A DNA stretch of 64,000 nucleotides from a virus (lineage: Duplodnaviria > Heunggongvirae > Uroviricota > Caudoviricetes): IMG/VR virus record IMGVR_UViG_3300028888_000110; one strand, given 5' to 3'. This document shows positions 1-64,000 of the stretch, piece by piece (the first letter of the stretch is position 1; every line of letters starts with the position of its first letter). The translations under genes were made by a program, and so were the position numbers. Under the pieces are notes generated by a model. The model was not told the DNA's origin and did not search any database. It was given only the letters and a program-made list of their open reading frames with translations.

Positions 1-74
1 TCCTATGAACTCTCTTGTGCGATACATACCTGTGAACCAGGTCGGCTTGAGGGATTTAAGGTGTAGGGCTATGG

Positions 75-149
75 ACTTCCCAGAGTCAATTTAAGTAGCT
101 TGGGACTTGACCTTATAGAATAGGCTGGGTTCGATTCCCAGGTATTTCA
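75..149 (+). ncRNA. tRNA-like 3' fragment: canonical T-arm CTGGG-TTCGATT-CCCAG, but no matching 5' acceptor strand found upstream
   Basis: T-stem/loop at 125-141 followed by GTATTTC-A. The required 5' partner GAAATAC is absent within 100 nt. May be a degenerate or permuted tRNA, or part of a larger structured RNA. Confidence 0.2.
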
Positions 150-216
150 TTGTGGGAGGAGACTTTCTTAAACACACTCCTCTCCTTAACGAGTTTTATA
201 TTATAATTATATAATT

Positions 217-423
217 ATGGCAGAACTAAATTTAAACGAAGAGATTAAAAAACTTCGCAAGGATTTACAACACGCTAACCTTCTAAATCAAAAATTAGAT
301 TTAGAGATTAGGCTCGCTAAAGCCGACAGAGGAATAGCAGAAAAGGAGGCTGAGTTTAGGAGATTACAAGACCCAGACGAGCCAACTTATGATGATTGTT
401 GTTGCCCTTGTGTGAATTATTAA
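217..423 (+). CDS. hypothetical small coiled-coil protein (68 aa) with C-terminal CCCPC
   Basis: ORF in the supplied track. It contains no TGA and ends at a genuine TAA. Confidence 0.45.
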   Translation: MAELNLNEEIKKLRKDLQHANLLNQKLDLEIRLAKADRGIAEKEAEFRRLQDPDEPTYDDCCCPCVNY

Positions 424-532
424 TTTTATGGAACGTCGGACGCCATTAAAGAGTCGACCACAATGAGTAGTTGTGATTTGATTTTTTATCCTCGCTAGGA
501 ATAGAGCAAGCGACTATTCCTAGAAGGTTATG

Positions 533-623
533 GGAGAGTAGCTCAACGGAAGAGCTTTAGTCTGGATAAAAGTGTAATGACTTGATTCACTTTGGTAGTT
601 GGTTCGACTCCAACCTCTCCTGA
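533..623 (+). tRNA. tRNA-like gene (91 nt) with a long variable arm; apparent anticodon CUG; identity unresolved
   Basis: Acceptor GGGAGAG/CTCTCCT (7 bp, one G-U). D-arm GCTC-AACGGAA-GAGC. T-arm GTTGG-TTCGACT-CCAAC. The anticodon stem is only 4 bp (TTTA/TAAA) with loop GTCTGGA. There is a 27-nt extra arm, GTGtAAT..ATTCAC. No CCA is encoded. Confidence 0.4.
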
Positions 624-668
624 AACGAACATTTGGCAAGGGTCTAACGGTGAGACTCTTGTCTAAAT

Positions 669-757
669 GGGGGAGAGACGACCAAGGTGGACGTGGCTCT
701 ATAGCGAGTGGACGCGTGAAAGAGTTGTGCGGTAGGGTTCAATTCCCACCTTCCCCA
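669..757 (+). ncRNA. tRNA-like element (acceptor GGGGGAG/CTTCCCC, weak D and T stems)
   Basis: 7-bp acceptor pairing with one G-U and a discriminator A. The T-arm GGG-TTCAATT-CCC is only 3 bp. A poor cloverleaf, possibly degenerate. Confidence 0.2.
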
Positions 758-829
758 ATATGTAACCTTGAGCGGGGCTATCCACAGCCCTTGCTTAATA
801 AGAGGGTATAGTTCTTATATATCCTGCCC

Positions 830-1200
830 CGTCTTCCGAGGGGATAAAACATATCGGAAAGCCGTAGGACACGTCAGGGGAACCTGTAGGGTATGTCGGC
901 AAATTGATTAGTTCAAAGAGTAAGCCACGGAGAGTGCACATCTCCAATGGTACCTGGTGCGAGTAGGGTCCCGACACCAAGGCTAAGTGACAGGTGCTGC
1001 AAGAATGCACGTAGGGAAGTGACCTAGCTAGGCTGACGCGCGAGCCAACCGATAATATGTAGCAAGTTGGGGACTAATCATAGGTGGAAATCCTATATGG
1101 GGTGGAGTTAGTAGCTCAACAGCTATGCCGAGCGTGACAGAGTAGTAATGATTAACGGGTCGCACCCGTTGTACGTAGGTGCAAATCCTACCCTCGGCTC
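830..1200 (+). ncRNA. GC-rich structured RNA region ending in a tRNA-like 3' domain (1127-1200: acceptor GCCGAG/CTCGGC, anticodon-arm AACGG-GTCGCAC-CCGTT, T-arm GTAGG-TGCAAAT-CCTAC)
   Basis: Local GC content is far above the window average, no ORF is present, and a tRNA-like fold of 74 nt with apparent anticodon CGC sits at the 3' end. A long-range pairing CCGAGGG (about 838) with CCCTCGG (about 1192) is also possible, which would be tmRNA-like, but no tag reading frame was recognised. Confidence 0.25.
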
Positions 1201-1202
1201 CT

Positions 1203-1894: not shown

Positions 1895-1916
1895 TTTATA
1901 TAATTTACCAAAAGGA

Positions 1917-3878: not shown

Positions 3879-4676
3879 ATGAAAAACTTTATGGTTTGAT
3901 GTTGGAGTATTATTATTCTACTCCTAGTTATCTGTGGTTTTAACTCTTGGTTTGTAGTTGAACCTGGATACAATGGATTTACTGTTACATTAGGTAAGGT
4001 AAATTCAACTGTTTACACGGATGGATTGCATTTCAAAACTCCATTCATTACTAAGTCTGTAAAGTATAATGTGCAGACACAAAAATTAGATGCCACAGCT
4101 GATGCTAGTTCAAAGGACTTGCAGAGTGTTGGTGCTACTATTGTAGTTAACTACAAGTACAAGGAAAGCGAAGTAGTAAACCTATACAAAAATGTAGGTA
4201 AAGAAGAAAGAGTAGCTGAAAAGATTATTACTCCTGCTATCCAAGAAGTATTTAAAGCCGTAGTTGCTAAGTATTCAGCAGAAGAATTAATCACAAAGAG
4301 AAGTGAGGTATCTAAAGATATTGAGGATACATTGAACAAGAGACTAGAACAGTATGGAGTTCAAATTCAACTATTTAATATTGTAAACTTTGACTTTAGT
4401 AAATCATTCAACGATGCTATTGAGGCTAAGGTAACAGCTGAACAAGAGGCATTGGCAGAAAAGAATAAACTAGAGAAAGTTAAATATGAAAGTGAGCAGA
4501 AAATTGTTGCAGCAGAGGCACAAGCTAAAGCTATTGAAATTCAAGCTAAGGCTATTCAAAACCAAGGAGGTAAAGAATATGTTAACCTTAAATGGATAGA
4601 GAAATGGGATGGTAAATTGCCTGTAACTGTAGCTTGAGAAGATAGTTCATTTATAATGATGATGGATAACAAATAA
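3879..4676 (+). CDS. SPFH (band-7/prohibitin/stomatin-family) membrane protein, 265 aa
   Basis: N-terminal TM (MKNFMVGCWSIIILLLVICGF) followed by an SPFH-like core (VVNYKY...ITKRSEVSKDIEDTLNKRLEQYGVQI...) and a coiled-coil AEQEALAEKNKLEK tail. The track ORF 4026-4637 is the internal fragment. TAA stop. Confidence 0.6.
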
Positions 4677-5654: not shown

Positions 5655-5702
5655 TTGAAACAGGGTCAATGAAGAAAAAATTGACCCTGAATTGACCCTG
5701 TT
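5655..5702 (+). promoter_or_regulatory. triple-repeat palindromic element (AACAGGGTCAAT...ATTGACCCTGA-ATTGACCCTGTT) upstream of the methyltransferase gene
   Basis: One inverted and two direct copies of TTGACCCTG. Copy 1 can pair with copy 2 (10 bp) or copy 3 (12 bp), giving alternative hairpins or an operator with three half-sites. Confidence 0.4.
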
Positions 5703-5737
5703 CTAATGAAAACCTTTATATTAAAACAAAAACAAAA

Positions 5738-7774
5738 ATGAAAGTATTATCCTTATTCGATGGGATAGCCTGTGGGTATGAAGCTCTAAAAAGAGCAGGC
5801 ATCCCTATTGATGTTTACTATGCTAGCGAGATTGACAAGCACGCAATCAAAGTCGCCAAGGCTAACCATCCAGATATCATAGAGATTTGAGATGTGTGCC
5901 AGGTTAAAGGAGAAGATTATCAAAGTGTTGACCTAGTAATTTGAGGGAGTCCTTGTTTTGTCAAGTGAACTAAGGTATGGACTTATGATTGATACAAGGA
6001 TATATCTGAAGTTGAGGTGTGAGATTATGTTCTATGACTTAACTGAGAATATAATCAAGTGCTAAAAACTTGATGAGAATCCAAAGAAATATGGAGTATA
6101 AAATGACAATGATTTTTAGAAACATTTACTACAGAAAATCATCCATATTATGTAGCGAAATGTAAAAGGGTATGACATGAATGACGTAGAGAACTACAAG
6201 ACCCAGAGCGAAAAAAAGTTAAGGATATTGAGGTGTGAGATTATGTATGATTGCCAATTATCCATACTAAAGAAAACGTAAAATGAATCACACTTCAAGA
6301 AGCTTGGCTATTGTGAAGATATATGGCTGATTGACATACTAGAAAAGACTATAAAAAAAATAGAAAATGAGAGAAGTCTTCTAATAGGTATTGGACAGTT
6401 ATATATTCTATATGAGATTCTAAACTTAATGATTTCGGCCATATAACAGAGTATCATGTCTGAAAGCAAAAACATTCACAATCAACTTATAGATTTGTTA
6501 TTAATAGTAAAAGATTAGTAGAACTATGTGAGGATATATGATGCTGAGCTATTAATAAATCTATACCTAAATGGATATTAGATTTGCCAAGAGAACTCTT
6601 AATTGAATTCTTTAAATGATATGTATCGTGAGATTGATATTATAAAGGAAAGTGAGTGCGGAGATGTAGTACAATAAGTAGAGATATGGCTATGTCTTTA
6701 TGTTTATTATCTGCAACACTATTTCACACCTGAGCACAAATACATTTTTATAAAAAAGCAAAGACACACACTATTCAATGAAGAATCGTAAACCAAAATG
6801 ATTGCTATGAAGTTGAAATAAGAGAATACAGAAAACCACAAGACCATTATATGGTCACTTATGATTATATATGGTTTCCAGTAAAAGAAGTAAAACCATT
6901 ATGATATGAGGATATGGTATATAACCTTGAAGTAGAAAATACCAATAGTTATACGGCTAATAATATAGTAGTTCATAATTGTCAAGGGTTCTCTATGGCT
7001 GGTAAGATGCTAAACTTCAATGACCCTAGAAGTAAATTATTCTTTGAGTTTGTAAGATTAGTAAAGGAATGTAAGCCAAAGTTCTTCTTGCTCGAGAATG
7101 TGAAAATGAAAAAAGAATATATTGAAGTAATTAACGAGCAACTTTGGGGAATAGAGCCTACACTTATCGACTCTGCTTTAGTAAGCGCCCAAAGAAGAAA
7201 ACGTTTGTATCGAGTTGGTAAGCTCCAAGAAGATGGAACTTATGCTAAGGTAGAAATCCCACAGCCAGAAGATAAAGGTATTCTATTAAAGGATATATTA
7301 TTAAACTATGTCGAGCCTAAATACGATATTAGTGAGAAACATACCATAGCAATGAAAAATGCTAGAAGTTGTGGAGAATTAAATCTACCTAGTTTAGATT
7401 GAAAATGCTGAACTATTATAGCTTGATACTATAAAACTCCACAAGATGGGCCATACATTCTAAAAGATTATATTCTCACAGATAGACAAATAGATATGAT
7501 ATCTAAGCGATGAGGGTATGAAAAGCCTTTGGAAAGAGTGAGATGACCAGAAGATAAAATGGACACTCTCACTACACATTGTGGCAAAATGTCTAATGGT
7601 ATTAAGTTGGTAAATGTGCCAAAGATTAGAAAGCTTCACCCTATAGAATGTGAGAGATTGCAAACCCTACCAGACAATTATACGGAGGGGGTTAGTGATA
7701 CTCAAAGGTACATCCAACTTTGAAATGGCTGGACGTGCGATGTAATAGCACATATATTTAAATGTTTAAAATAG
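5738..7774 (+). CDS. DNA (cytosine-5)-methyltransferase (Dcm family) interrupted by an intein. Mature extein is about 336 aa.
   Basis: Motif I LFDGIACG. Motif IV is split: DLVIGGSP precedes the intein and CQGFSMAG follows it. Then ENV (LLENVK), QRRKR, and motif X TQRYIQLGNGW. The conserved Gly positions are encoded by TGA. Preceded by the leader AAACAAAAACAAAAATG. TAG stop. Confidence 0.8.
5954..6979 (+). mobile_element. intein (342 aa) with LAGLIDADG homing-endonuclease domain, inserted at the catalytic Cys of the methyltransferase PCQ motif
   Basis: N-terminal block CFVKGTKVWTYDG...VGDYVLGL. Block B TENH. Two LAGLIDADG motifs (WLLGRYMADGH and FFKGYVSGDGY). C-terminal block VYNLEVEN..NNIVVHN followed by the +1 Cys of CQGFS. 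Length 1026 nt, in frame. Confidence 0.75.
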
Positions 7775-24595: not shown

Positions 24596-25034
24596 AATGG
24601 GGTAAAATTAAATTATTACATCGCTTCTATACCATTCATATGGGTCGTTAATATCTTTACTTGTGAGAGTTTCTATTAGCCATTCTCTCACATCTTTCCT
24701 CAAAGCTTTTGCGCTAATATCAACTGTTGTGAGTAGCTGTTCTGCTAACATCTTGTTAGCAAAAAGCGTATGGATAGCGCGATGATAATTGTCCTGTATT
24801 AGTTCTATATTTTTTCACACATTTGCTCAACCTTGACTACGAGGGAGTAGATGGTGACGGCTGTATGTCTTCTCTCTTGACATTCTTTTCTTGGTTTTGT
24901 TGAAATAAACACAGCATTTCGTAGCTACATTTTCGACAAGTTTTCTTCCATCATATTCATTGTCTGCATTTATCTTCTCATTCTTTATGGTATCTAAATT
25001 TCTCCATTATTGTTTTTTAAAAGGCTTAAAGTTT

Positions 25035-25725
25035 TCAAAACTTCTTTCATTTGTATTTTAATGTTCTCTCTACAGCATCTTCAATCGAATCGCATTGTTG
25101 TATGTTTTTATGGAGACTCGTAACAGGGACTTCTATTTCTCTTGCTAATTGGCTCATAGTGTCATAATGTTTTCCATTATAGTCCAGCCTACGATTGGGC
25201 CTTCTATTATTCCCCTGTTCTTGATTTGTTGCTCGTCTACAATTCTCTTTGCAATAATCTCAATTCACATCTATCCTATCTATCGTGGTATTCTGTTCTC
25301 AATATATCTTGCAATGCTCTTCGTAACTTTTATGCATATCATTATAAAACTCTAAAAAGCCGTTTCGTAAGCACTTGATTCATCTTCCTCCATAGTTTTT
25401 ATAAAAAGCCATTTTTGGATTATTACATCTAGTACATATTCCACTATAAATTCTAAACAAACGAGTTTTGGTCATTCAATGAATTGTATTCCTCGCCACA
25501 AAGGCAGGGGTATTATTCTTATACTGTACGCAAGCGCAGTTAGTAGATTTTCAATTAAATAGATTATCTCTACATACATATTTTTCCTTTCAGCATACAC
25601 ATCTACAAAGTTCATAAATTTTTAACTTTCATCTTTTACCGACAGGCTTTCTAATATGCTTTCCTAAAGCTGTTCGGTATCAAAATTTATCTCAGGCTTT
25701 TACTTCTCTATTTAACATAGTTATT
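25035..25725 (-). CDS. HNH_3-family homing endonuclease (about 230 aa), paralog of 28737-29450
   Basis: LFRIYSGICTRCNNPKMAFYKNYGGRGIKC...TTIDRIDVNGDYCKENCRRATNQEQ fits the YGGRGI...IDRID-N-GNY...NCRWAT-EQ HNH_3 pattern. Confidence 0.5.
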
Positions 25726-25806: not shown

Positions 25807-26767
25807 CTAGTATTCAATAAACTTCATTTCAATATCGCTACTTCAATCATCTTTTAAATTAACTTCTACAATTCGTCATCAAATAACAGTACCTAAATTG
25901 AATCTTTTTGCAAGTAGATTTTGCTTTAAAAAACTTCAGACTAAAAATGAATGGATATTTCTGTAAGAAGCATACAATGCATCATGCCGATGTCAACTAG
26001 CAAAAATATCCGGCTGGTCTCTTGGGTCAATGTTTTCTATAAGCTTTTGCATATGATAACTTTTAGCATAAGCTTGAGACTTTCATCAATGATGTGCATT
26101 TATGTCCACTCCATTCAGCTTTATTCTAGCATCATAGAATCACATATCTATTATATCATCTCTAAGGTTGGCTATATTCTTGATTATATTAGCTCAGTTC
26201 TCTTTTAAAAAGCTTTCGTCATGATTGCCACCCAACATATAGGTTTTAACATCTCCATAATATGGATAATCATTCACCACTGTTTTTAACTGTTCGTCAT
26301 ATCCTACATTCTCTAGCTCATACATCTGTCATTTAAATACATGACCACTTCAATCCACTAAGTCTCAACAATGGATAAAAGCGTCTACTCAAGCTTCTCA
26401 AGCCTTCTTATAAAAATCATCTAGCTCCTTCTTTGCACTTTGTTTATTCCCAATATGAGTATCCCCTAAAAGGGCGAATTTTAAATGTCATCTATCATTT
26501 ATAATTTTCTCTATACTTTTAGAAGTATTCACCTGTAAATGATTTAATATATCTCTCAATTCTTCAGGGGAATAAGTCTTAACAAGTTCGGATTTTAATC
26601 TAGCATCTTTTTCTTCTTTGCTTTCTTTCTTTTGAGCTAGAGCCTCTGATAATTGTTTCCTATATTTAATAACACTATCAGCGCTAACTCACAATTGTCT
26701 AGCAACTTCTCTAGCAGACCCGTCAGCTGATTGAATCTGCTTAATAGTTTCATCATTTAGTTTCATT
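25807..26767 (-). CDS. metallophosphoesterase (calcineurin-like Ser/Thr phosphatase family), about 319 aa
   Basis: All MPP motifs are present: LLGDTHIG (D-x-H), GDLVDGSG (GDxxD-G, the Gly encoded by TGA), GGNHDE, HHG and GHRHD. Confidence 0.6.
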
Positions 26768-26799
26768 AATTGGTAGTGGGGGTAGGGGGTAAAACTATT

Positions 26800-27276
26800 T
26801 ATTCTTCTAGTTCTTTTTTCTCCTCTTCTTTATTAATTTCTGCATCAGTCTTATTTACTAAACTTTTCAAAAGCTTAGCAATTCAATTTAGAAGTAATTT
26901 AATACTATCTAGCTCGGGCAATTCTTCTTTGTAATTAATAGAATAGATATGTCCAATTATACTATATAATTCACTAAACACTATCATTCAAAGAATAGCA
27001 GTAATCAGTTCATCCATTCCTCACATTCAAGTCCACTTTAATCATCAAGCGACTACAAATGGGATAACCCATCTAGAAAGTTTTCTAATTAAGCCAGATT
27101 GCCATTTACTACTTTCAATCTTTTCTCATCTAACTTTGGCGGCGATGATTCCAAAAAAGAAATCCACTACTAATAAGACACTCATAACGAGGAGCCCCTC
27201 ACTAGAAATGGAAAAATAATCTAATATGCCTGCAACAGATAGTCCCCCAGCTAATCATATTAAGGCTCATTCTGTT
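26800..27276 (-). CDS. membrane protein (about 158 aa; multi-TM N-terminus, charged C-terminal tail), possible second holin/lysis regulator
   Basis: GLAGGLSVAGILDYF...VLLVVDFFFGIIAA...VIPFVVAGGLKW..; directly downstream of the peptidase gene. Confidence 0.35.
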
Positions 27277-27315
27277 TCTCACATATTAATATGTTAATTA
27301 TTTAAAATTGCAAAC

Positions 27316-27329
27316 CCCTAAATAGGGGC
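27316..27329 (-). terminator. rho-independent terminator after the peptidase gene
   Basis: CCCCTATTTAGGGG palindrome followed by TTTGCAATTTT on the minus strand. Confidence 0.45.
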
Positions 27330-27353
27330 GGAATCCCGTAGGAATTGTAATTC

Positions 27354-28300
27354 TATTTAGGGAGCTCCTCGTTCAGTTCAGGATAAAATTTTCTTACAGA
27401 GGCGCTATAAGCCTCAATTCATTTCTTTACTTCAGAATTTTCTTCTGAATAATATTTCTTTAATACCTTTAAAACTGCTAAATGAGCATTCTTTCTTTTT
27501 AAGTAATCAGCACTCTTTGCTTCGTCCTCTTTCATATAAAGCACTCGATATCTATAATTCCATTTCGACCCTAGTTGCTTCATTGTATCATATGAAACGT
27601 GAAATCTACATTTCAATTTCTTTTCATCATTAGCTCTCCAAGAGTTAACGAACCATAATCATTGCTTGTCCCATCCTACTAAAGCTATACAATGCGCTCA
27701 AGTTATATTTGTAGGAATTGTTTTTATCTGTCAGCTTAGCATCTCATTCCACATTTTGGCATTTCATTTAATAAGCCAAACTATAGGACATCATTGATAC
27801 AAATAACGTTTCATTTTATCCATTGCTACATCGTCGTGAGTCCATTCATCTGTAGCATAAGCATCAAATTTAGCTAAGCTTCAATTCTCCTTAACTAGGA
27901 TTCATTGCTTCAAAGCAGTACTTACGGCCTTTTCAACATAATCTCAACCATCGTAAGACGTAGTTGAGTGTCACATCTTACCCCACAAATCTTTCCAATC
28001 TGGAGTAATTATGTTGCTAGTTGTAGGCACTACTCATTTCTTCTTCACATTAAGGATTTGCACAGAATGTGTAGTCCCCATTGAAGTACAACTTCCAAGA
28101 GAACCTTGATTAGAAGTTTGGTATATCCACTTCCCTAAAGAATAACTCTCTGGTAGCTGAGTAGAATAATCTAATTTGATTGCCTCTCAAGCATCAAAGT
28201 CTGTTGCTTCAGCCATATCTTCTGGTAAACTTTTTGCACTTCAGAAGATTCTCTCTTCTTCTTTGGTTAATTTATTATTAGAAAACCAAGGTAGTTTCAT
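27354..28300 (-). CDS. papain-like (C1-type) cysteine peptidase, putative endolysin (315 aa)
   Basis: Catalytic triad contexts: QGSLGSCTSMG (Cys), GAHCIALVGWD (His), FVNSWRAN (Asn-Ser-Trp). Track ORF 27419-27616 is its C-terminal fragment. Located next to the holin-like gene. Confidence 0.55.
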
Positions 28301-35500: not shown

Positions 35501-38100
35501 TAAAACATCTTGCTTTCAATTCAAATCACTTTGAGTAGCAATCGTTGTAGTATCTACGCTAATCTCGTTCTGTGCTGAAATATTTATTCAATTTCAAGCC
35601 GTATATGTTGTATCTGTGTCGGTGTCTACAGTCTCCCAAGAAATTCAGTTATATATTTTTAATACATGGTTAACTGTATCATACCGCAAATCTCACTCTT
35701 GTGGATTTTGAGGAGCGGCACTTCATTCATGAATTAATCAATCTATAGCATTATCTACATATGTTTTTGTGGCATAATCACTAGAGTCAGACAACTCTGC
35801 CACAGTTGTAGGCACAGAAATATCTATTGTTTTATTGCTAGCCGAGTTCGCAGAAAATGTATCTATAGTTGTAGAATTCTTTTGTATAGTTAGTACTCAA
35901 TCATTTACTGTTGGCAATTGTCAAATAGCTGATTGTATAGCAGCATTTACATCTCAAGCAGTTTGATAGCCAACGTTGTTCGTCAATTGTGAAATGTTGG
36001 CATTTGGCTGTAAGGCCGTAGCTCAAGCAGCAGCTCAGCTTCTAATTGTTGCCAAATCTGATATTATATTTTGTTTTCAATTAATTGCTGTAGCAATTGC
36101 TCTATTCTCTACTGCGTTAGTTGAAGTAGTGTCTAATGTTGTATCAATAGAAATTTGAATAGATGTATCGGGTATCCTTACCCAATCAGCACCATCAAAA
36201 TAATATTTATCGTTTATTCATACATTTTCCAACTCAACCGTTGTACTAGCGACTCATTGAGTATAAGTACCTCAGTGTGGTTTATAGTTTGTAGAACCAG
36301 TAGCAGAGACTACATAGTAATCTCATACCTTATATGTGTATGGGTCTTCCTGTGGATTCGTCCCAGGAAGTCAAGTTGTACAATCCCAAGTAGAAAGGAA
36401 CTTTCATGTTCAACTTAATGAATTAATTTGGTCTTGTAATGTTCTACCCATATTTGCTGATAAAGCATCAGTAGTCGATATACTGTCTAAACTATTAACT
36501 ACTCATGGGATTCAATCTATTTTAGAAGAAATGTCGTTTTTAAGTTTATAAATACGAGCATCTTTTTCTGTATAAATATTATCCCCGTCAAATACTAATC
36601 TTCCTTTTGGCATTAATTGTTAGTTAGGGGATAAAACATTAAGAAATAGGGTTAACTATAATATATTTATAGCTTCCTGTCTCAGTTTGGTTTGAAACAA
36701 CTGTTAACTGTCAAACATTAATAACTTCATTCAAATCTCAAATTATATCTGAATAGTTAGATATAGCTACAAAACTATCAGCTGTTATGGCTTCATCTAC
36801 TACTACAGAAGTATCTGAATTAGAAAAAATTCCTGTACCCATTTTTACAATTGCTGTAGTATACACAGGTGGTAAATATTGTGGGTCAACTTTTCAATTT
36901 ACATCTAATGGTGCGACTCAATTAGGCTGTCATTTTTCAGCTTGTAAAACGAAGTCAGGTGCTTCTGCTCATTGAGAAAGATATAACCCATCAGTAACCC
37001 TAAGTTCGTCAGTCACTACTTCAGTAGTTCTAACTGTGTCACTCTCTATTTGTCAATCAATAGTCATTCAATTGCTACCATTAATAGCTCAATCAACTCT
37101 TAATGTTCAAGCAATATCTACACTACCCGTTAATTCTAGGTTGTTAAAGTGCACTGTTCAAGGTACGCTTAATTCTGTAATAGTTGCTGTATCCATCAAT
37201 ACATCTCAAGTGGTGTTTAGATTATTTAATGTAACAGTTCAAGTTGAAGTCATATCAGCTACGGTTGTATTTCCTGTAACAGCCAAATCTGTTAAAGTAG
37301 CATCGGCTGAAGTTAAGTTTGCTACATTTCAATTAGTTATAGTAGCTTCAGTCGCCGTCAAATCAGCAACACTTCAATTAGTTGCTGTCAAATTAGTTAC
37401 AGTAGCGTTAGTTGAAGTTAATGTAGTGACATCTCAAGAAGTAGCAGTTAATGAAGTAATTGTAGCATTGCTTAACTGTGAATCAGTAGCTATAAGGTTA
37501 TCTACATTTGCTGTTGCGAGATTACTTGTTGTAGCATTTAATGTCGTAGCACTAACTACATTTCAAGTAAATTCTCATTCTGTTGTGACTGTACCTGTAA
37601 AAGTTACGTTTCAGTTAACTGTATGTAATGTTACATTATTTAAATCTAGGCTCATATTTTCTATAGCATTTTCTATAGCATTCATATCGAGAGAAATTCT
37701 ATAAACGTTTTCTCCTTCAATATGTACTTGGATTGGGGCCGTTCAAGTAATTTCAAAATTTCTTACATCACAATCTTTTCTTTTCCCTGTAGGAATTCTA
37801 TATACAGTCTGCGTTGTAGTTGAACTAGTGGTTGTATTAGCGACCCTCCCAGTTCATAATCTTTGTCCACCATTTTGTGGTTTTCTTTGTCTAGGCATTG
37901 TTTTCTTGATTTAATAAATTAAATTGTTCAGCCATCCAGATAATCAAGTTAGCAAATTCTTCTTTAGGAAGTCATTGTAACATAGGTTGGATGTCAATTT
38001 TTAGCTCTTCGATATCATAAGCTGGCATTTCAAGCTCTCCCTCTGTAGGAGCTTCTTCTACAACTTCTTCTACAGCTAACTCTCATCCTGGAGCAAACAT
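29520..38100 (-). other. array of several paralogous tail-fibre/receptor-binding-protein genes (minus strand) with beta-helical N-x-T/V-T repeats
   Basis: Shared C-terminal coding blocks (...TAQE(I/V)(S/A)DYYNLTK(A/S)NYG*, RTEIGSYT/QTETGSYK) recur at about 29925, 30137, 31605 and 36671. Repeats such as TNLTATNGSVADLTATEATITNGNVANLTSADATLTDL and NTVTNTGVTSVNSNTGAVT occur. Each stop is followed by TAATCAGATTT. Individual gene boundaries were not resolved. Confidence 0.45.
30648..31574 (-). CDS. receptor-binding/tail protein (about 309 aa) with Big_2-like Ig domain and C-terminal jelly-roll-like domain
   Basis: MPIVNV...ITWSSDDTSVATVDTTGLVSCVTPGECTITATTVNGLTASCSV (Big_2-like), then ...PCYRKSDGVIGLYDLVNSTFYTNQGSGTFTKGPDVN*. 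Confidence 0.4.
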
Positions 38101-41260: not shown

Positions 41261-42755
41261 ACTAGTCTAGGATTTCTACATCATCTAATTGACATACTTC
41301 ACAAGCATTCAATACACAGCTTCCGAAGTTCTTAATGAATCTGTAAGCTCCTTTGTCAACTCACATCCATACGATTGCGAATTTAACATCTCCAACAATC
41401 TTGTTACATTCTCCAAGCTGAGCTCAGATATTGTAAGGATTTTCTGGGATATATCTTAACATAGGAGTTCCTTTAGAAATATATCCATTAATTTTAGCGT
41501 TAGCTACAACTTTTCCGTTAGTATCAACTACTGTATATTTAGGCTGGAATACTCCAACTTTATCTTCAGGGATTGTTAACATCACAGAGAAGTCGAAGTC
41601 GTTAAGGATAGGTAAGTATTTGAATTTGATTTCAACACCTGCGTATCTGATTCTTGGTAATCCAACATCGATATCGAATTGGCTTCCGTCTAAGAATCCA
41701 ACATTTCCATAATCTTGGAAGTATCCTTGCATCATGTGAAGTCCTTCCATAGCTTTCTTGTTCATAGCTACAGTTACAGTGTTCTTGTACATTCCAGAAA
41801 TCATAGCTTTATTAATAACTATGTCTAAGAATGATTGAATTTGATGTCTAGCATTTGTACATTCAGAAGCACTGTCATCGCAACATCCAGACAAATCGAA
41901 GGCAATCTTTAATCCGTTTTCTTGAGCTTTTGCAAGAGCAGGGAATAATCACATTGTCTCCCATTTATATGTAGAAACTTGGATATTTCTATCATAGAAA
42001 GCAGCGTGCAAGAATTCTTTAATAGCTTCAATATCTCCTTTTCTGAACATAGCATCTACGATAGCTTGGATTCCTCCAGAGATAAGGTAGTCTTTGTTCA
42101 AATCACACCAATTGAATTCGTGAGAAATAGAGATAGTTCTGAAGAAAGCAGAATAATAATCTAATCCTCCTAATTCTACTGGATTGTCAATTGTAGTATC
42201 ACAATTTCTATCTCTCAAGTAAGCTCCTCTTCTAACTTTATCTCCAGCTTTAAGGTCTGTAGTTAAGTTATTAGCAAGAGTAATTTGATTGTTAGCACTA
42301 TCGATAGAAGCGATATACAATCCGTTAACTGGATTTCCTCCTTGTTTTGTAACTAGAACTGTAGAGCCAGCTTTAACTCCTCCTAATGGAGCAAGACTTT
42401 CAACAGTAAGAACGTTAGTTCCTGAGTCAGCGTCTGCAGTTAAAACAGTTTCATCTCCACAAATTCTTGGTTCATACCAACCAACTTTACATTGGTCGTC
42501 TACTAGAGTTAATTCACTAGAAGCAGCTAAACCATCTTTGAATTTATAAGTTACATATACTTCTCCTGTAGTAGGGTCTTTTTGAGGTACTACATCGAAG
42601 AAAATTGTCTCATATCTTAGGAATTCTTCATATTGTCCCCAAGTTTCGAGAACTCTACCCTCAGCGTATAGTGGGTTCAAAATGTCTTGAAAACGTACTG
42701 ATTTTTCAGCTAAACCAGTAGCGTCACAAGGATTACAACTTGTTGTTCCTGGCAT
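41261..42755 (-). CDS. putative major capsid protein (about 497 aa)
   Basis: Track ORFs 41949-42755 and 41424-41894 join through TGA-Gly codons and continue to TAG at 41261. GC-richer codon usage typical of highly expressed genes. Sits directly downstream of an acidic scaffold-like gene and is followed by a strong terminator. Confidence 0.5.
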
Positions 42756-44011: not shown

Positions 44012-46045
44012 TTATTGCGGTAATATAAAGTCAAGTTGACTTTCATCTACCTGCTCTGTAGGATAACTTGAATTAGTGTATGGTAGTTGGTCTGGATTAG
44101 TTCATTGTGCTTGTTGCATCATCATAGCTATTTCTTCCTCACTAGGCTGACCATTGGTAGTTGGTTGGACCTGCTGTTGTGGTTGGGCTTGTTGTGCTTG
44201 TTGCTGCGCTTCCATTTCTTTCTGCTGAATATAATCTTTGATTTGGTAGGACTCATCGATGTATTGTTTCTGCTCATCTACGGTCATAGCCTTAAATCAC
44301 TTCAAACCTGCATAATCAGTAATACTTTCTAAGAAAGCTCTATTATCTATATCAGGTAATCAAGTTATAGGGTTAGTTGCGAATCAAGCAGTATTTTGCA
44401 TTAATGTTAGAAGTCATTGTGTTTTAGAAGCTTTAGTTTCTTCTACTCAAATATCAGCAGAACAAACTATCTTCATTCTGTGGTCTAATTCTGAAAGATT
44501 AATTACATATTCTTCGTCCTCGTTTTGAACATATGCTACACTAGCTCAACTTTGTTTTGAAAGTCAAAGCCAATGATAGAATAGTTTAGAATAAAATCTA
44601 CCTATAGATTTAATCATAGGGCTAAGTCTTGCTTTAGAAGCAGCAACTCTTTGTTCTGCTCAGTAACGGCTTCTCTCTACTTTTCATTCTCAACCTAGAA
44701 CATATGAATTGACTCAACATATTGTGTAAGCATCAGCTTTAATATTCTCAAACTGGTTCATAGCAAGAGACAGAATATTGTAATCAGTAAAGTCTATCTT
44801 TGTGATAGCATTATTCATTCAAGCATAACTTGGGTTGATGGAATAAACTTTACCTTCATCATAACCTATTGTCGTAGGAGCGTTACCTGTAGTAGGGTCA
44901 GTAATAGCTCATTGAACTGCAGCTAAGACAGGATTCAAATGTCTATAAACCGCATCGGCAATAGAGTTAAACAAAGCGTTACATTGCTTTTGATGTCACA
45001 TTACCTTCTTTCAAATTCAACTTGGGATACAACCTACACCTTTCTCGTATGTCAATTCAATAAAAGGTCATTCTCTACTAGATATAGCGTAATCTTCTCA
45101 ATACTTGAAAGGGCTATCTCAGTTATAAACAAAGTAACCATTAACCATCACCATAAGCTTATCCCCTATGTAAAGGTCAACTACTTCACAATAACTAGAT
45201 GAATCTAGAATGTTAAATGTGTCATCGTATATCATTCAGCTAGGAGTACCGTCTCATAAGTATCATAGGTACGTAGTAGAATAAGCGTCAATGTCATATA
45301 TCTTTGTAAAGTCGGCTTTACTTAAAGGCATAGGAGCCTCCAATATAGCTGTCTTCTTTTTTTCTAATTGCTTAGCCATTCAATCCTTTCAGTCCCATAT
45401 AGGGTAGAAAGCGTCTCTAAGTCAATCAAAAGGAATAAATCTCCTTCTAAATTTTTCTGGTGCTTTGTAGAAATCTGTAGCTCATACACTATAGAACATT
45501 TCAAAGGCTGACACAGGGAATAATGCTGGGATAAATGTAGTAACATTATCTCCATCCTCGTTCTTCATTATGCTCGTCGTGTATCCTGGCATTCAGTAAG
45601 AAGCTCAGATTAATGAAGCCTCGTTTCTAATAATCTCATTAGTTTGCTCTGTTTCAGAAATTTCAGTACCCCACTGAAAGAATAATTGAGTATCGTCAAC
45701 TATTTGTGGGTCAACTTCTTCCATCGGGAATACCTTTGGTCTCAAATCATTATCATACAATGAGGCCATAAATGTATCATGAATAGAAGTAATTAAAGGA
45801 TAAATCTTGGCAGACTTATATTTCATATTATGCTTTTTAAGTCCAGCTTCATATTCTTTAGAATAAAGTTTATCCATTTTGATAACCTCAAACCATTCAG
45901 GGAATATATTATCTCTAAAATGGACTAATATTTTTTTAAGTTTATCGTAAATGGTACGTTCGGCATCAGTGGAATTATCTTGGTAGATTTGAGCTTTCTT
46001 TTCTTTTTCTTGTTGCTCTACTTGTTTTGTAATTGTGTCTGCCAT
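44012..46045 (-). CDS. portal-like / head morphogenesis protein (about 677 aa) with Gln-rich acidic C-terminus
   Basis: Continuous frame from the track ORF 45605-46045 start through many TGA codons to TAA 44012-44014. The length is a multiple of 3. Its position just upstream of the scaffold and capsid genes fits a portal or head protein. This assignment is tentative against the 1012-aa protein at 56438-59476. Confidence 0.35.
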
Positions 46046-59860: not shown

Positions 59861-62010
59861 TAGACCATTCTTTAAATTTGAAAGGAAGTCTCAGCTTGTC
59901 TCCTGTGGTTTCTGGTATCTCTCAGCCCGATATTCCTCTGCTAATTGCTGATTACTTTTTACGCTACCAATCTTGGCCACATCTTTTGTGGCGAGTTGGT
60001 CGTGGAACCAAGCAAAATAAAGCACAAGCATCATTCCAGAAACCTGGTCATCGTGTTTCTTTTTCTCTCATCTAGCAGAAGCTCTCCACTTTTTAAAATG
60101 GGATAACTCCTCAACTAATCCATTCTCTCAATAACAAGCTGGGTCAATATGTATCAAGTTAGTGTCAAAGAAACTGCTCCTAATCATTTCAATACACCGA
60201 GCCTTTCATACATTATGCCTAGCTCAAGGTTGATATGTGACATTACCTGTCCACTTGATAAGCATATCAACCGGCATTCAAAGCATTCACAATTCCCTGG
60301 CTGCAGCCCATCAACGAGAAGCATCTAATACTAAGTAAACAGGTTTTCATTTATTTTTCAAATCCTGAATAACCTGCTTCATTTTAGAAAACCTCTCATT
60401 ACTCTCCTTGGCTAAGTTATAAGTTTCTTTAATGTAATACTTTCAATCCTTAGCTCCAAGGATACAGAGTCAAGGGTTATCGAAGGTATCAGCTTCATCG
60501 TAACCTACAACCCGATAGTCACATTCACTAGGGCAGGCTAGCTGCACTCATTCAACATTGAATACGGTTTGGTCTGTGGAATATTCTCCATAGTATTCGG
60601 CAAGCATATAATCATAACCTCTAGCGTTTAAGACTCTTATTACCTGGGCTTGTTTCTGTTCTTCTGTTAAGAATTCAACATCATCCATTGTAAAATGTAA
60701 AGCTACTTCTGGACGACGCTGAATAAACTCAGCTCTCATCTTTTCAAAATCTCAATTCTTTATTTTCCTTAAATAATCCTTTCTATCCTTACATAGATGC
60801 AACCCATATTTAATCCATATATCATGAATAAGCACATCTATAGGTTCATATTCTCTTTGGTTCTTATAAGCATTAAGCCAACCTTTATAGAAGTTTCAGG
60901 CTTGTGTATTTGGTCAAATCGTTGAAATGAGTGTCACTAATGAGTCTGCTGTAGACATAGCAGTTCATACATAATCCCAATCCAAGTAATCAGCTTCGTC
61001 TCACACAAACTTTCTAGTTCTACGACTACGAGTAGGGTCATTCTGATTTGTAGTCACATATTCAAGCTTCCTTTGTTTATCTCCGTCCACAATGTAAAGC
61101 CCCGAACTATCTGGAAGTTTATTACAGAAGCTAGGTAAATCTATAAGATTATTTAACATCTGCTGAGCATAAACCATATATGGTGCATTCTGTTTTTGGC
61201 TTAACCCCATATAAAGTTGTGTCCATTCCTGCACTCTTTCATTATTGTCAGTAATCTCCTTTAACAAATATCAAGCCATATCTCAGTTAATATAGAGAGA
61301 TTTACCTCATCACCTAGGACCAATTACATATGTCACTCATCAACTCAATAACCACACCATCATCTGCCAACGCTGCAAAACAAATCAATGAAATGTCTTT
61401 CAACTATCAGCTAGCATGGCCTCAAATAGCTTTGGCTTATATACTCAAAATACATTTGTCTTATATTCAGTACCCTGTACATTATATGAAATAGAGAAGT
61501 CATCTCATAAATCCCAATCAAGATATTCTGTTTTATTTAGATTCTTTTTATTTTTACCCATAGGGATTTTTAATGGACTAACTCTGAATTGTCATAGTAT
61601 GATATCTTTCATTATGCAAAGGGCTAATACATTTTTTGTGCTCTCCAAAGCAGATACATCCTCTTTTTCTCTTCTATGAAATACTCAATTTATATCTAAT
61701 TGGTAATCATCTAGAAACTTCGATAAAATAAATTCCATCCTAGTAGATACCGCTCACTTTGTAACAAAGGTTAAGAATTTAGTATCGATATCTTGCTTAA
61801 GTAATTTGTCGGTCCCCAATGGAATTTGTACAGGTATATCTAAATCTGGAGGGCGCTTGATGGTTATTGTGACCATAAGTTTTTTATTCTTTTCATATCG
61901 CTCCTCGGCTTCACGAGGCTCAAGAGTGAATTTTAGATTCATCTTATCCCCGTTATAAAATAATCATCATTTATCATCCTGAAAATCTTTATACAAAAAT
62001 CATCGTGCCA
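59855..62010 (-). CDS. terL: terminase large subunit (about 718 aa)
   Basis: Walker A VIGPRGGGKS, with the two central Gly encoded by TGA (+ coordinates about 61301-61325). Walker B FVGDEADYL. Coupling motif LISTIG. C-terminal RNase-H-like nuclease region containing VVGYDEADTFDN. Track ORFs 61001-61267 and 60548-60739 are fragments of it. Confidence 0.7.
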
Positions 62011-62012
62011 TA

Positions 62013-62952
62013 TTATGTAGGTATAATATAAAACCATTTTTCTCGTTCATTTGGTTGATACTTAACTAGGTAAGTATCCCATAAGATATATATTTTTAAA
62101 TCATCTGTTTTCTTTTTTAGCCAATCCATTCTTTTTTTATGTAGCTCATCAACTGTATCTTTAGTTAGCCAAGGTATATTATTCTCTAGACAAGGACGGT
62201 ATATATTCCCCGCCTGGCTAATAATCACATCCCCTACGAGGAAACTAACTCTACCTAAATAAACTTCACTAATTATATATTTATCTCTAAGCATAGCAGA
62301 GGCTACACTACATACTTGATTCATCGATATATCTGTATTATCTACAAGCTTTCTCATGTTTCATCAAGTAGCTCGCATAGGGTTTTTTGTGAGAGATTGT
62401 CTCTTAGATAGTTTTAAATCTCCTAAGCTTATCTCGTTTATATGTGGCTTCAAATATTCATAAGCCCTATCTTGTATTCTTCACAGATTTGTTAGCACTC
62501 ATCACAAATTAGCAAAGTTATAAACCATAACAGGTTTAATATAAGCTTCTTCCTTGGATGGTTTAACCCAATTTAATCTAGAAACTCGTCGAGAAAATTT
62601 AAACTTCCCCTCGTAATTAATATCATCGTCTCTAAATTTTTGTGTGTAATATTTATCTCGATTAATTATTTCTGGGACATCGGCATAAATTTCATCAATG
62701 AGCTCTCACACAAACAATTCTTCTTCCTTCTTTTTCTCTTGATATTTCTTTTTTATCTCCTTTCTTCTATTTTTGTAATATTCTTTCTGATACCAATCTC
62801 GATATGCCTCTTCTCACATTTTCTCTTTCATCTCTTTAGCTATTTCCTTTTTGGATTTTATTTCCTTTTCTTTTGCCTTCAGAATCCTATGATAGCTTCA
62901 TTTTTGTTTTGGATTTTCTATAATTTCTCATTGTAAATCGTTGAATAGTGAC
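62013..62952 (-). CDS. hypothetical protein (about 313 aa) upstream of terL, possible small terminase subunit/DNA-binding protein
   Basis: Lys/Glu-rich N-terminus (KEKEIKSKKEIAKEMKEK...). Ends ...FYIIPT at a genuine TAA (62013-62015), 3 nt before the terL start. Includes track ORF 62013-62357. Confidence 0.35.
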
Positions 62953-62969
62953 ATAATGGTGTAATGGGT

Positions 62970-63060
62970 AAATATTATTCTCTATTAATAGATTATATTT
63001 TTTTGGGGCGAAATAAAAAAAATTCTTTTGACTTTTTTATTTTTACTGTAGAAATATGTA
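62970..63060. promoter_or_regulatory. divergent promoter region: late-promoter-like box (copy 4, minus strand) plus + strand TTGACT-N15-TAGAAAT-like element
   Basis: + strand: CTCTATTAATAGATTATATTTTTTTGGGGCGAAATAAAAAAAATTCTTTTGACTTTTTTATTTTTACTGTAGAAATATG. Also the palindrome GAGAAAAATTTTCTC at 63124-63138. Confidence 0.4.
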
Positions 63061-63183
63061 GTGCAAATCTGGTCTAACAAAATGTTATAAAAATTTGACA
63101 AAATTTTATAATCTATTGTTAGAGAGAAAAATTTTCTCTTGAAATTTTATTTGGCACAGATATTTTCTAGCCAAGTAAACAGA

Positions 63184-63275
63184 CAAAACCCCGGTAATTG
63201 CGTTACATAGGAAGTCAGGGCCTATGGCAATGCGCTTCTATGTAACACCCTGACAACAGTTGTCGGGGTTTTTGT
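63184..63275 (+). ncRNA. GC-rich structured RNA-like element with H-type pseudoknot topology in the divergent intergenic region (possible origin-associated structure, riboregulator or ribozyme-like RNA)
   Basis: Outer stem CAAAACCCCGG / CGGGGTTTTTG. Stem 1 GTTACATAG(63202-63210) pairs with CTATGTAAC(63238-63246). Stem 2 GTCAGGG(63214-63220) pairs with CCCTGAC(63248-63254). The order s1-s2-s1'-s2' forms a pseudoknot. No ORF, and GC content is far above local background. Confidence 0.35.
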
Positions 63276-63337
63276 TTACTCATAAAATAATCAAACGAAA
63301 AAATACTACCATTTACCCATTTACCCACCAAACAAAA

Positions 63338-64000
63338 ATGCCAAACATTCAATTAGAAATGATGAGAGAGAAATATCCTCACTTCAAAGAATGCACTATT
63401 CAACTTTTTGATGACACAAAACAATGAAGAGATTTGGCTAGGAAACTAGACCAAAACAAATTCTCTGATGAAGATTTGGAAAGATGATTAGAGGCATACA
63501 ACAAAAAATGAGCGGGGGTATTCTTTTCTATAAACTCAATGTTGCCTTGAGAAAGAGACAAAACTAGTGTGACAAGGGTAAATGCTTGGGCGTGCGAGGT
63601 AGATGACCTTAGCAAAGAAGACCAACTGAAGTTAATTTCAGTGGCTCCTCTGGCCCCAAGCCTCATAATAGAAAGCCACAAAAGTTTCCATATGTATCGG
63701 TTTGCTAAAGATGGGACAATAGAAAATTGGACAAAGGTATGTCGATGACTTAGAAATTTTTTTGGCTGAGACCCAGCAATAGCAAGTGACATATCAAGAG
63801 TGCTACGTGTTCCTTGATACAACCATATGAAGGATGCCAACAATCCATTTATGTGCGACATTATCGATTGAAATTGAGAATATTATACAGAAGAAGAAAT
63901 GCTCAAAGCTTATCCAGACACAGAAACATTAGCAGACAAAGAGGCTAGAGCTATTAAAAAAGAACAGCAATTAAAACAAGCTGTATGAAATGATGATGCA
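63338..64000 (+). CDS. primase-polymerase (AEP-superfamily)-like replication protein, 5' partial at window end
   Basis: Leader AAACAAAAATG. The code-25 frame stays open to the window end. AGVFFSINSM...VNAWACEVDD...LIIESHKSFHMYRFAKDG resembles bifunctional primase/polymerase N-terminal motifs. Tentative. The minus-strand track ORF 63400-63861 is probably spurious. Confidence 0.35.

What the first reader, a model, noticed from the sequence alone, without database searches (positions are those of the whole stretch)
1..64000. Whole window is recoded: TGA read as glycine (translation table 25, Gracilibacteria/Absconditabacteria-type)
Under the standard code almost no ORF in 64 kb exceeds 200 aa. 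Recognisable proteins are interrupted by TGA exactly where invariant glycines are expected. In the C5-MTase these are IEI-[TGA]-DV (GD) and DLVI-[TGA]-GSPCQGFS. The TerL P-loop reads GPR-[TGA][TGA]-GKS, which gives G-x-x-G-x-GKS. The metallophosphoesterase reads GDLVD-[TGA]-SG. Tryptophan (code 4) would destroy these motifs. Reading TGA as Gly restores long genes throughout. The element is therefore a phage or prophage of a candidate-phyla-radiation host.
Basis: partly seen in the sequence, partly recalled or inferred. Interest (0 to 1): 0.8.

Follow-up and report, generated by a model that had tools for sequence, protein, structure and literature searches.

The report
Phage written in Absconditabacteria's triple-recoded code

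Summary
Under table 11 the longest ORF is 268 aa. With TGA as sense, 60 genes cover 89% of the window, the longest 3304 aa. In-frame TGA makes up 4.7% of codons and GGN only 2.8%.

TGA is glycine, not tryptophan. Across related phages it exchanges with GGN 553 times and with TGG 3 times. It sits at the TerL P-loop, the methyltransferase GD and GN motifs and the LAGLIDADG glycines. Pfam scores are higher with G than with W in every comparison.

Table 25 is incomplete for this genome. CGA and CGG exchange with TGG (110 pairs) and with Arg codons only 3 times. They occupy tryptophans that are invariant in eight standard-code HNH endonucleases. This matches the Absconditabacteria code predicted by Shulgina and Eddy (2021) and points to that host.

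Phages that read TGA as glycine are already published (Liu 2023; RSA-ATP1 2026). I found no report of the CGA/CGG change in a phage.

The window is a phage: TerL, portal, HK97-fold capsid protein, tail fibres, holin. No integrase or suppressor tRNA was found.

Side findings: the capsid gene avoids TGA (3 of 43 glycines), an intein splits the methyltransferase PCQ motif, and an odd tRNA-like cluster lies at 530-1200.

The parts
1..64000 (.). Whole window: phage genome segment in which TGA = Gly and CGA/CGG = Trp. Genes on the + strand (1286-18148, early and replication-type) and on the - strand (18312-62954, structural, lysis and packaging) are both recoded.
59855..62050 (-). Large terminase (731 aa) with 33 TGA and 5 CGA/CGG. 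The Walker A motif is GPR-TGA-TGA-GKS at 61321-61298.
   Evidence: (Terminase_6C, weak)
5669..7774 (+). C5 cytosine DNA methyltransferase interrupted by an intein. TGA sits at the GD motif, at the first G of GGSPCQ and at the G of motif X (GN).
5954..6979 (+). Class-1 intein (342 aa; Hint plus LAGLIDADG homing endonuclease) inserted between GSP and CQGFS of the methyltransferase. The glycines of its LAGLIDADG motifs are TGA codons.
25807..26766 (-). Metallophosphoesterase with an N-terminal HTH. Its motif II reads TGA-DLVD-TGA-SG.
   Evidence: (49.5 bits with G, no hit with W)
41262..42755 (-). Major capsid protein with the HK97 fold. Only 3 of its 43 Gly codons are TGA, it has no CGA/CGG, and it shows strong high-expression codon bias.
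44012..46045 (-). Portal protein.
   Evidence: phrog_1216, E = 1.8e-13
46509..56423 (-). 3304-aa polyvalent protein with an ART-PolyVal domain; 182 TGA and 6 CGA/CGG.
25026..25718 (-). HNH endonuclease. Its CGA codons at 25233-25235 and 25365-25367 fall on Trp residues that are invariant in standard-code homologues.
28737..29561 (-). Paralogous HNH endonuclease. Its CGG at 29103-29105 falls on the same invariant Trp (NCR-W-AT).
32336..36613 (-). Tail-fibre genes at 32336-33718 and 34520-36613, with the paralogue 33754-34509 between them.
26799..28300 (-). Lysis module: holin (26799-27284) and a papain/C39-like peptidase (27353-28300).
29929..32300 (-). Laminin_G_3 protein (29929-30621), Big_2 protein (30648-31574) and a paralogue (31602-32300). 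At one aligned C-terminal position the three paralogues 29929, 31602 and 33754 carry TGG, CGA and CGG respectively.
3879..4676 (+). SPFH/Band 7 protein with low TGA use (2 of 13 Gly).
63224..64000 (+). RepB-type primase N-terminal domain, cut by the window end.
531..1201 (+). Cluster of aberrant tRNA-like elements (531-623, 669-757, 1127-1201) in a non-coding island of about 51% GC. None has a UCA, UCG or CCG anticodon as called.

Best explanation
The window is about 64 kb of the roughly 76-82 kb genome of a tailed dsDNA phage that infects Absconditabacteria (candidate division SR1). Its genes are written in the host's genetic code. UGA is a glycine codon, and in fact the commonest one (about 63% of Gly codons). 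CGA and CGG are tryptophan codons (about 26% of Trp codons). Only UAA and UAG terminate.

The phage carries no tRNA for these codons in the sequence seen. It therefore presumably relies on the host's tRNA-Gly(UCA) and tRNA-Trp(UCG/CCG) and on the host's lack of release factor 2.

Shown here: the meaning of the three codons, the phage nature of the element, and the genome-wide extent of the recoding on both strands. Inferred: the identity of the host and the use of host tRNAs.
For: UGA = Gly:
- In-frame TGA is 4.69% of codons, GGN only 2.76% and TGG 1.17%.
- Pfam scores are higher with G than with W: DNA_methylase 156.4 vs 144.8 bits, Metallophos 49.5 bits vs no hit, RepB_primase 29.4 vs 16.7 bits.
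- In 86 TerL relatives, window TGA columns show W (which is TGA in a code-4 translation) 56% and G 27%. Window TGG columns show no G at all.
- In codon alignments with 17 recoded relatives, TGA pairs with GGN 553 times and with TGG 3 times.
- Against M.HhaI, TGA aligns to the G of GD and to the G of GN.

CGA/CGG = Trp:
- CGA pairs with TGG 76 times and with AGA 3 times. CGG pairs with TGG 34 times and with AGA never. These alignments were built with CGA/CGG read as R, which biases against this result.
- 22 of 30 covered CGA/CGG sites have TGG in a relative, and 1 has an Arg codon. Of 337 AGR/CGY sites, 1 has CGA/CGG in a relative.
- A tally of aligned partners over all codons with enough aligned pairs flags only TGA->G, CGA->W and CGG->W.
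- Paralogues within the window show TGG, CGA and CGG at the same position.
- In eight standard-code phages the HNH positions NCR-W-AT and C-x-x-W are W in 8 of 8.
- PHROG HNH families score 9-15 bits higher with W than with R.

Host:
- CGA+CGG->Trp was predicted specifically for Absconditabacteria.
- A TerL-bearing contig 80% identical lies in a Ca. Absconditabacterales MAG.

Phage:
Against: - One Pfam comparison goes the other way. Metallophos falls from 49.5 to 43.0 bits when the two CGA/CGG codons are read as W; one of them is the site SGH-CGG-HD.
- A few CGA sites align to non-aromatic residues or to AGA in divergent regions.
- The host link rests on the code itself and on one short binned contig. 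Related contigs are also binned in two Methanobrevibacter MAGs.
- No host tRNA, RF2 status or CRISPR spacer could be examined.
- No protein-level evidence exists.
Confidence: 0.86

Rival explanations
1. Plain table 25: only UGA is reassigned (to Gly), and CGA and CGG remain arginine.
For: Metallophos scores 6.5 bits higher with R than with W in the comparison that includes the SGH-CGG-HD site. Published work on these phages used table 25.
Against: - CGA/CGG exchange with TGG 110 times and with AGA 3 times.
- 22 of 30 sites have TGG in a relative.
- These codons occupy invariant Trp positions in standard-code HNH homologues.
- PHROG scores rise 9-15 bits with W.
- In TerL the CGA/CGG columns never show K, whereas true Arg columns show 10-12% K.
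Confidence: 0.05
2. Table 4: UGA is read as tryptophan, as in Mycoplasma and in many recoded gut phages. Public protein catalogues translate this family in that way.
For: Database proteins of the family carry W at these positions. Two recoded relatives encode tRNA-Trp(CCA), and L008's copy has a mismatched base pair in the anticodon stem. Anticodon stems of 4 bp have been linked to UGA reading elsewhere.
Against: - Trp content would be 5.9% and Gly 2.8%.
- TGA pairs with TGG 3 times against 553 times with GGN.
- Pfam hits are lost or weakened with W.
- TGA sits at the P-loop, GD, GN and LAGLIDADG glycines.
Confidence: 0.01
3. Recoding driven by the phage in a standard-code host, as in the Borges et al. 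model. Recoded codons would delay late genes and be read by a phage-encoded suppressor tRNA. The host could even be Methanobrevibacter, as the binning suggests.
For: Contigs of the family were binned in two Methanobrevibacter MAGs. A cluster of unusual tRNA-like genes lies at 531-1201.
Against: - TGA makes up 40-80% of Gly codons in nearly all genes of 140 aa or more, on both strands, not only in late genes.
- No tRNA with a UCA anticodon was found in the window or in 17 related loci.
- Two sense codons are also reassigned, which a standard-code host could not read.
- Binning of short or low-coverage low-GC contigs is unreliable.
Confidence: 0.03
4. The window is an integrated prophage, or a phage-like region of an Absconditabacteria chromosome, rather than a free phage genome.
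For: Prophages with dense TGA are described in Absconditabacteria. Many early genes have no family match, so an integrase could have been missed.
Against: - No integrase, recombinase or host housekeeping gene appears among the family hits.
- Relatives assemble as 76-82 kb contigs, and the parts of them read here (about 21 kb each) hold only phage-like genes in conserved order.
- Both window ends lie in phage-type sequence.
Confidence: 0.08

Closest known systems
Code-25 phages and prophages of Absconditabacteria and Gracilibacteria (Liu, Jaffe, Chen, Bor, Banfield, mBio 2023, PMC10746230)
   Same: Tailed phages with dense in-frame TGA read as Gly. Coding density collapses under table 11. The host is inferred to be a recoded member of the candidate phyla radiation.
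   Different: That study scored only table 25 against table 11 and never mentions CGA or CGG. It proposed that TGA use is a form of codon optimisation, whereas here the capsid gene avoids TGA. No DNA match to this window was found among deposited phage records when window 40000-64000 was used as the query.
RSA-ATP1, an Absconditicoccaceae tailed phage (mBio 2026, PMC13059738)
   Same: A phage of an Absconditabacteria-lineage host that uses UGA = Gly.
   Different: RSA-ATP1 is 39 kb and encodes its own tRNA-Gly(UCA). This window and 17 related loci show no such tRNA. CGA and CGG are not discussed there.
The Absconditabacteria genetic code predicted by Codetta (Shulgina and Eddy, eLife 2021, PMC8629427)
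   Same: The same three reassignments: UGA->Gly, CGA->Trp, CGG->Trp. CGA and CGG are rarer than UGG, and Arg is encoded mainly by AGA.
   Different: That prediction was made for bacterial genomes from profile-HMM columns. Here the same code is seen in a virus, and the main evidence is synonymous exchange between related genomes.
Phage assemblies predicted to read AGG as Met (Shulgina and Eddy 2021)
   Same: A phage that follows a sense-codon reassignment of its host and carries no tRNA of its own for it.
   Different: Different codon, amino acid and host (Bacilli). Only one codon is reassigned and no stop codon is involved.
Stop-codon-recoded gut phages using code 15 or code 4 (Borges et al.; Peters et al. 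2022)
   Same: A canonical stop codon is used as sense throughout long phage genes.
   Different: Those phages infect standard-code hosts, concentrate recoding in late genes and often carry suppressor tRNAs, RF1 or aminoacyl-tRNA synthetases. None of that is seen here.

Membership tests
NCBI table 25 (SR1/Gracilibacteria code) | UGA encodes glycine | tested here: met
NCBI table 25 (SR1/Gracilibacteria code) | All other codons keep the standard bacterial meaning | tested here: not met
   CGA and CGG behave as Trp.
Absconditabacteria code (Shulgina and Eddy 2021) | UGA = Gly | tested here: met
   As above.
Absconditabacteria code (Shulgina and Eddy 2021) | CGA = Trp | tested here: met
   CGA pairs with TGG 76 times and with AGA 3 times. 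CGA falls on invariant Trp positions in HNH homologues. PHROG scores rise 9-15 bits with W.
Absconditabacteria code (Shulgina and Eddy 2021) | CGG = Trp | tested here: met
   CGG pairs with TGG 34 times and with AGA never. TerL CGG columns are W in most relatives. The CGG in gene 28737 falls on the invariant Trp.
Absconditabacteria code (Shulgina and Eddy 2021) | Decoding apparatus: tRNA-Gly(UCA), tRNA(UCG/CCG) with Trp identity, and no RF2 | not testable with these tools
   These are host features and no host bin was available. None of these tRNAs is in the window.
Table 4 (UGA = Trp) | UGA aligns with and exchanges with Trp | tested here: not met
   TGA pairs with TGG 3 times out of 3029 aligned TGA. 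Pfam scores are worse with W.
Tailed dsDNA phage (Caudoviricetes) | Large terminase, portal, HK97-fold major capsid protein and tail proteins | tested here: met
Phage-driven stop-codon recoding in standard-code hosts (Borges-type) | Recoded codon concentrated in late genes, plus a phage-encoded suppressor tRNA or release factor | tested here: not met
   TGA is 40-80% of Gly codons in nearly all genes of 140 aa or more on both strands. No suppressor tRNA was found.
Class 1 intein with LAGLIDADG homing endonuclease | N-terminal Cys, block B TxxH, C-terminal HN followed by Cys, and two LAGLIDADG motifs; removing it restores the host protein motif | tested here: met
   The sequence runs CFVKG...TENH...VVHN|CQGFS. 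Pfam matches Intein_splicing, Hint and LAGLIDADG_3. The spliced sequence aligns without a gap to M.HhaI through PCQ.

The most novel reading that the evidence does not exclude
This phage lineage is the first virus shown to have adopted its host's complete three-codon code change: the stop codon UGA to Gly plus the two sense codons CGA and CGG to Trp. The synonymous exchange of CGA/CGG with UGG between related phage genomes gives independent evolutionary confirmation of the Absconditabacteria CGA/CGG reassignment, which so far rests on profile-HMM inference. In addition, UGA is the commonest Gly codon but is translationally disfavoured: the capsid gene avoids it and uses GGA instead. This argues against the published idea that dense TGA reflects codon optimisation. 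The probability given covers both the reading being correct and its being unreported.
Probability: 0.55. Interest if true: 0.7.

Novelty: new variant of a known kind. Interest (0 to 1): 0.6.

Why it matters
- Annotation. Table 25, which published studies use for these phages, would mistranslate about a quarter of the Trp positions as Arg. Table 4, which the large protein catalogue searched here applies to this family, puts Trp at about two thirds of the glycines. Table 11, used for the copy of the family binned in a GenBank Methanobrevibacter MAG, shatters the genes.
- Host assignment. The CGA/CGG signal is a host marker that needs no CRISPR spacers. It separates Absconditabacteria phages from Gracilibacteria phages.
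- Code evolution. A virus that tracks both a stop-codon and a sense-codon reassignment shows that these changes do not wall off the host from phages. It also provides many independent substitution events that test the predicted code.
- Translation. The avoidance of TGA, and of ATA, in the capsid gene suggests that UGA-Gly decoding is slow or error-prone even in a fully recoded system.

Tried and rejected
- Megablast of window 40000-64000 against deposited phage records found no match.
- ARAGORN with default settings found no tRNA in the window or in L001-L007 and L020-L025.
- Rfam at gathering and at E <= 1 found only the tRNA-like hits at 532-622 and 1127-1199, plus weak hits that look like chance (Phe_leader, FTX_2, and a tmRNA-like hit at 669-760).
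- ARAGORN with introns allowed and a lowered threshold called Tyr(GUA) with a 9-nt insert, a tRNA with an 8-nt anticodon loop, and an Ala(CGC)-like tRNA. None has a UCA, UCG or CCG anticodon.
- A 23-mer from the 3' part of the 532-622 element hit only two unrelated large phages, next to tRNA arrays.
- ORF 1286-1651 has no relatives in IMG/VR.
- The first 3.9 kb of the window share almost no DNA with the fetched relatives.
- The metallophosphoesterase, with X at TGA, gave only non-significant hits against PDB sequences.
- The Pfam test of R against W at CGA/CGG was inconclusive because few such codons lie in Pfam domains. Metallophos fell by 6.5 bits and RepB_primase rose by 1.7 bits.
- TerL, the 1012-aa protein, the 761-aa protein and others gave no PHROG or Pfam family.
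- Cluster-member names gave no host information beyond one 'Methanobrevibacter sp.' label.
- L012-L019, fetched through the SPFH protein, use the standard code and were left out of the codon analysis.
Full report
**Observation**

The window has 33.5% GC. Under table 11 it holds only 32 stop-to-stop ORFs of at least 100 aa, three of at least 200 aa, and the longest is 268 aa. With TGA as a sense codon there are 34 ORFs of at least 200 aa and seven of at least 500 aa, the longest 3304 aa. Freeing TAG or TAA instead does not give long genes. A non-overlapping set of 60 genes then covers 89% of the window and holds 892 in-frame TGA. The genes that end inside the window stop at TAA (42) or TAG (17).

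- IEI-TGA-DV.
- GPR-TGA-TGA-GKS in TerL.
- TGA-DLVD-TGA-SG in the metallophosphoesterase.

One detail is wrong. 'DLVI-TGA-GSPCQGFS' is not contiguous, because a 342-aa intein (5954-6979) lies between GSP and CQGFS.

**TGA is glycine, not tryptophan**

Five lines of evidence agree.

- Composition. TGA is 4.69% of codons, GGN only 2.76% and TGG 1.17%. Reading TGA as Gly gives 7.4% Gly. Reading it as Trp gives 5.9% Trp and 2.8% Gly, which is implausible.
- Profile scores. With G rather than W at TGA, DNA_methylase scores 156.4 vs 144.8 bits, Metallophos 49.5 bits vs no hit, and RepB_primase 29.4 vs 16.7 bits. The Hint and LAGLIDADG hits, and weak peptidase hits, appear only with G.
- A solved standard-code homologue. 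Against M.HhaI, TGA aligns to the G of GD, to the A of (A/G)GxPCQ and to the G of motif X (GN). The glycines of the intein's LAGLIDADG motifs are also TGA.
- The TerL family. The public catalogue translates these proteins with code 4, so W there means either TGA or TGG (W about 6%, G about 3%). Window TGA columns show W 56%, G 27%, then S and A. Window TGG columns show W 75%, then F, R and Y, and no G. Window GGN columns show G 42% and W 39%.
- DNA level. In codon alignments of 19 window genes against 17 recoded related loci, TGA pairs with TGA 2014 times, with GGN 553 times and with TGG 3 times. This holds even though TGA to TGG is a single transition.

**The code is not plain table 25**

Shulgina and Eddy (eLife 2021) predicted that Absconditabacteria also read CGA and CGG as Trp. 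I tested this in six ways.

- Codon pairs. CGA pairs with TGG 76 times, with CGA 34 times and with AGA 3 times. CGG pairs with TGG 34 times, with CGG 8 times and with AGA never. These alignments were made with CGA/CGG translated as Arg, which biases against this result.
- All codons. A tally of aligned partners for every codon with enough aligned pairs flags only TGA->G, CGA->W and CGG->W. ATG and TGG are also marked, but only because each is the sole standard codon for its amino acid.
- Sites. Of 30 window CGA/CGG sites covered by relatives, 22 have TGG in at least one relative and one has an Arg codon. Of 100 TGG sites, 20 have CGA/CGG and none has AGR/CGY. Of 337 AGR/CGY sites, one has CGA/CGG.
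- TerL columns. CGA/CGG columns are W 61%, Y 19%, R 11% and never K. True Arg columns are R 76-79% and K 10-12%.
- Paralogues inside the window carry TGG, CGA and CGG at the same position.
- Standard-code evidence. The two HNH endonucleases (25026-25718 and 28737-29561) have CGA or CGG at NCR-x-AT, and one has CGA at GIKCL-x. In homologues from Klebsiella, Caulobacter, Hamiltonella, Staphylococcus, Clostridium, Bacillus, Pseudomonas and Acinetobacter phages these positions are W in 8 of 8. Four PHROG HNH or restriction-endonuclease families score 9-15 bits higher with W than with R.

The one contrary datum is Metallophos, which loses 6.5 bits with W; one of the two changed codons is the site SGH-CGG-HD.

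In the window, CGA (63) and CGG (16) make up 26% of Trp codons, against 222 TGG. Arg is encoded by AGA, AGG, CGT and CGC.

**What the element is**

It is a tailed phage. The genes with a function assigned are:
- TerL at 59855-62050.
- Portal at 44012-46045.
- A scaffold-like acidic protein at 42836-43741, assigned by position and composition only.
- Tail fibres.
- Big_2 and Laminin_G_3 proteins and a holin, and a papain/C39-like peptidase.
- A 3304-aa polyvalent protein with an ART domain.
- On the other strand, a RusA-like resolvase, the methyltransferase and an SPFH protein.
- A RepB-type primase at the window end.

No integrase was found. Relatives that are 70-87% identical in DNA occur on contigs of 76-82 kb.

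Recoding affects both strands and both early and late genes. No tRNA with a UCA, UCG or CCG anticodon is present. The phage must therefore use host tRNAs.

**Host**

Three things point to Absconditabacteria:
- The CGA+CGG->Trp pattern was predicted specifically for that group.
- A contig with a TerL 80% identical sits in a Ca. Absconditabacterales MAG.
- GC content is low.

Related contigs in two Methanobrevibacter MAGs are best explained as binning errors. A standard-code archaeon could not translate these genes.

**Comparison with what is known**

Phages that read TGA as Gly are already described. Liu et al. 2023 found that most predicted Absconditabacteria phages longer than 20 kb clearly use code 25. 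The 39-kb phage RSA-ATP1 even carries its own tRNA-Gly(UCA).

Neither paper mentions CGA or CGG, and full-text searches found no report of this reassignment in a virus. The nearest precedent is two phage assemblies predicted to read AGG as Met. I therefore rate the whole as a new variant of a known kind. The library searched is incomplete, so this rating is provisional.

**Side observations**

- The capsid gene uses TGA for 3 of 43 glycines, against about 65% elsewhere (Fisher p = 8e-15), and uses GGA instead (79%). It also prefers TTC (96% vs 32%) and avoids ATA (3% vs 48%), the signature of a highly expressed gene.
- This avoidance is conserved in 74 homologues and at the DNA level in two relatives.
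- Across genes, the TGA fraction correlates with the ATA fraction (rho = 0.60).
- Together these suggest that UGA-Gly is abundant because of mutation pressure, not because it is translationally optimal. This runs against the suggestion in Liu et al..
- Window 531-1201 holds three aberrant tRNA-like elements in a GC-rich non-coding island. I could not explain them.

Noticed in passing
window 41262-42755 (-); also L020 10001-11497 and L007 9839-11332: The major capsid gene almost completely avoids TGA-Gly (3 of 43 in the window; 2 of 44 and 2 of 40 in two relatives) and uses GGA instead. It also shows strong TTC and ATC preference, avoids ATA, and has no CGA/CGG. This is conserved in 74 homologues. 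It suggests that UGA-Gly is a translationally non-optimal codon.
   Followed up: yes
window 5954-6979 (+): A 342-aa class-1 intein with a LAGLIDADG homing endonuclease is inserted in the catalytic PCQ motif of the C5 DNA methyltransferase (GSP|C...VVHN|CQGFS). The spliced sequence aligns without a gap to M.HhaI.
   Followed up: partly
window 430-1210 (+): A non-coding island of about 51% GC in a 33.5% GC genome, with five T-arm-like hairpins and three aberrant tRNA-like elements. The element at 531-623 scores 41.9 bits against Rfam tRNA, has a long variable arm and a 16-nt anticodon loop. The other two are at 669-757 and 1127-1201. A second hairpin with a similar 16-nt loop lies near 1047-1072. 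The fetched relatives have no homologous DNA here. Function unknown.
   Followed up: partly
L008 11041-11114; L009 6815-6888: Two TGA-recoded relatives encode a tRNA-Trp(CCA). The copy in L008 has a C-A mismatch at the bottom of the anticodon stem. A 2026 NAR paper predicts that organisms reading UGA as Gly should lack tRNA-Trp(CCA) with a 4-bp anticodon stem. Whether these phage tRNAs matter for telling UGG from UGA was not tested.
   Followed up: partly
L004, L006 (NZ_JAUNXX010000081.1 and NZ_JAUNXX010000112.1); L007 (JAGCBE010000101.1, a 76,181-bp contig): Contigs of this phage family sit in two 'Methanobrevibacter sp.' MAGs, one of them in RefSeq. In the GenBank record the genes are called with table 11 and are shattered, and the TGA-poor capsid gene is the only long ORF (443 aa). 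This is probably a binning error.
   Followed up: partly
proteins P0001-P0165 (TerL and capsid-protein families): The public protein catalogue translates this phage family with code 4, so TerL homologues carry about 6% W and 3% G. These entries also read CGA and CGG as Arg.
   Followed up: yes
window 46509-56423 (-): A 3304-aa polyvalent protein with an ART-PolyVal domain (residues 714-870) and an HExxH motif lies between TerL and the portal. The homologous genes in the relatives' loci encode 2939-3602 aa.
   Followed up: partly
window 3879-4676 (+): An SPFH/Band 7 gene with low TGA use (2 of 13 Gly) and low ATA use. Homologues also occur in standard-code phages (L012-L019). It is either highly expressed or recently acquired.
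   Followed up: no
window 1286-1651 and 2401-2778 (+); 29929-30621, 31602-32300 and 33754-34509 (-); 25026-25718 and 28737-29561 (-): Several paralogous gene sets occur within the window: two small early proteins, three proteins that share a C-terminal '...ENxxWxAQxxxxYYNxTKxNYG' tail, and two HNH endonucleases.
   Followed up: partly
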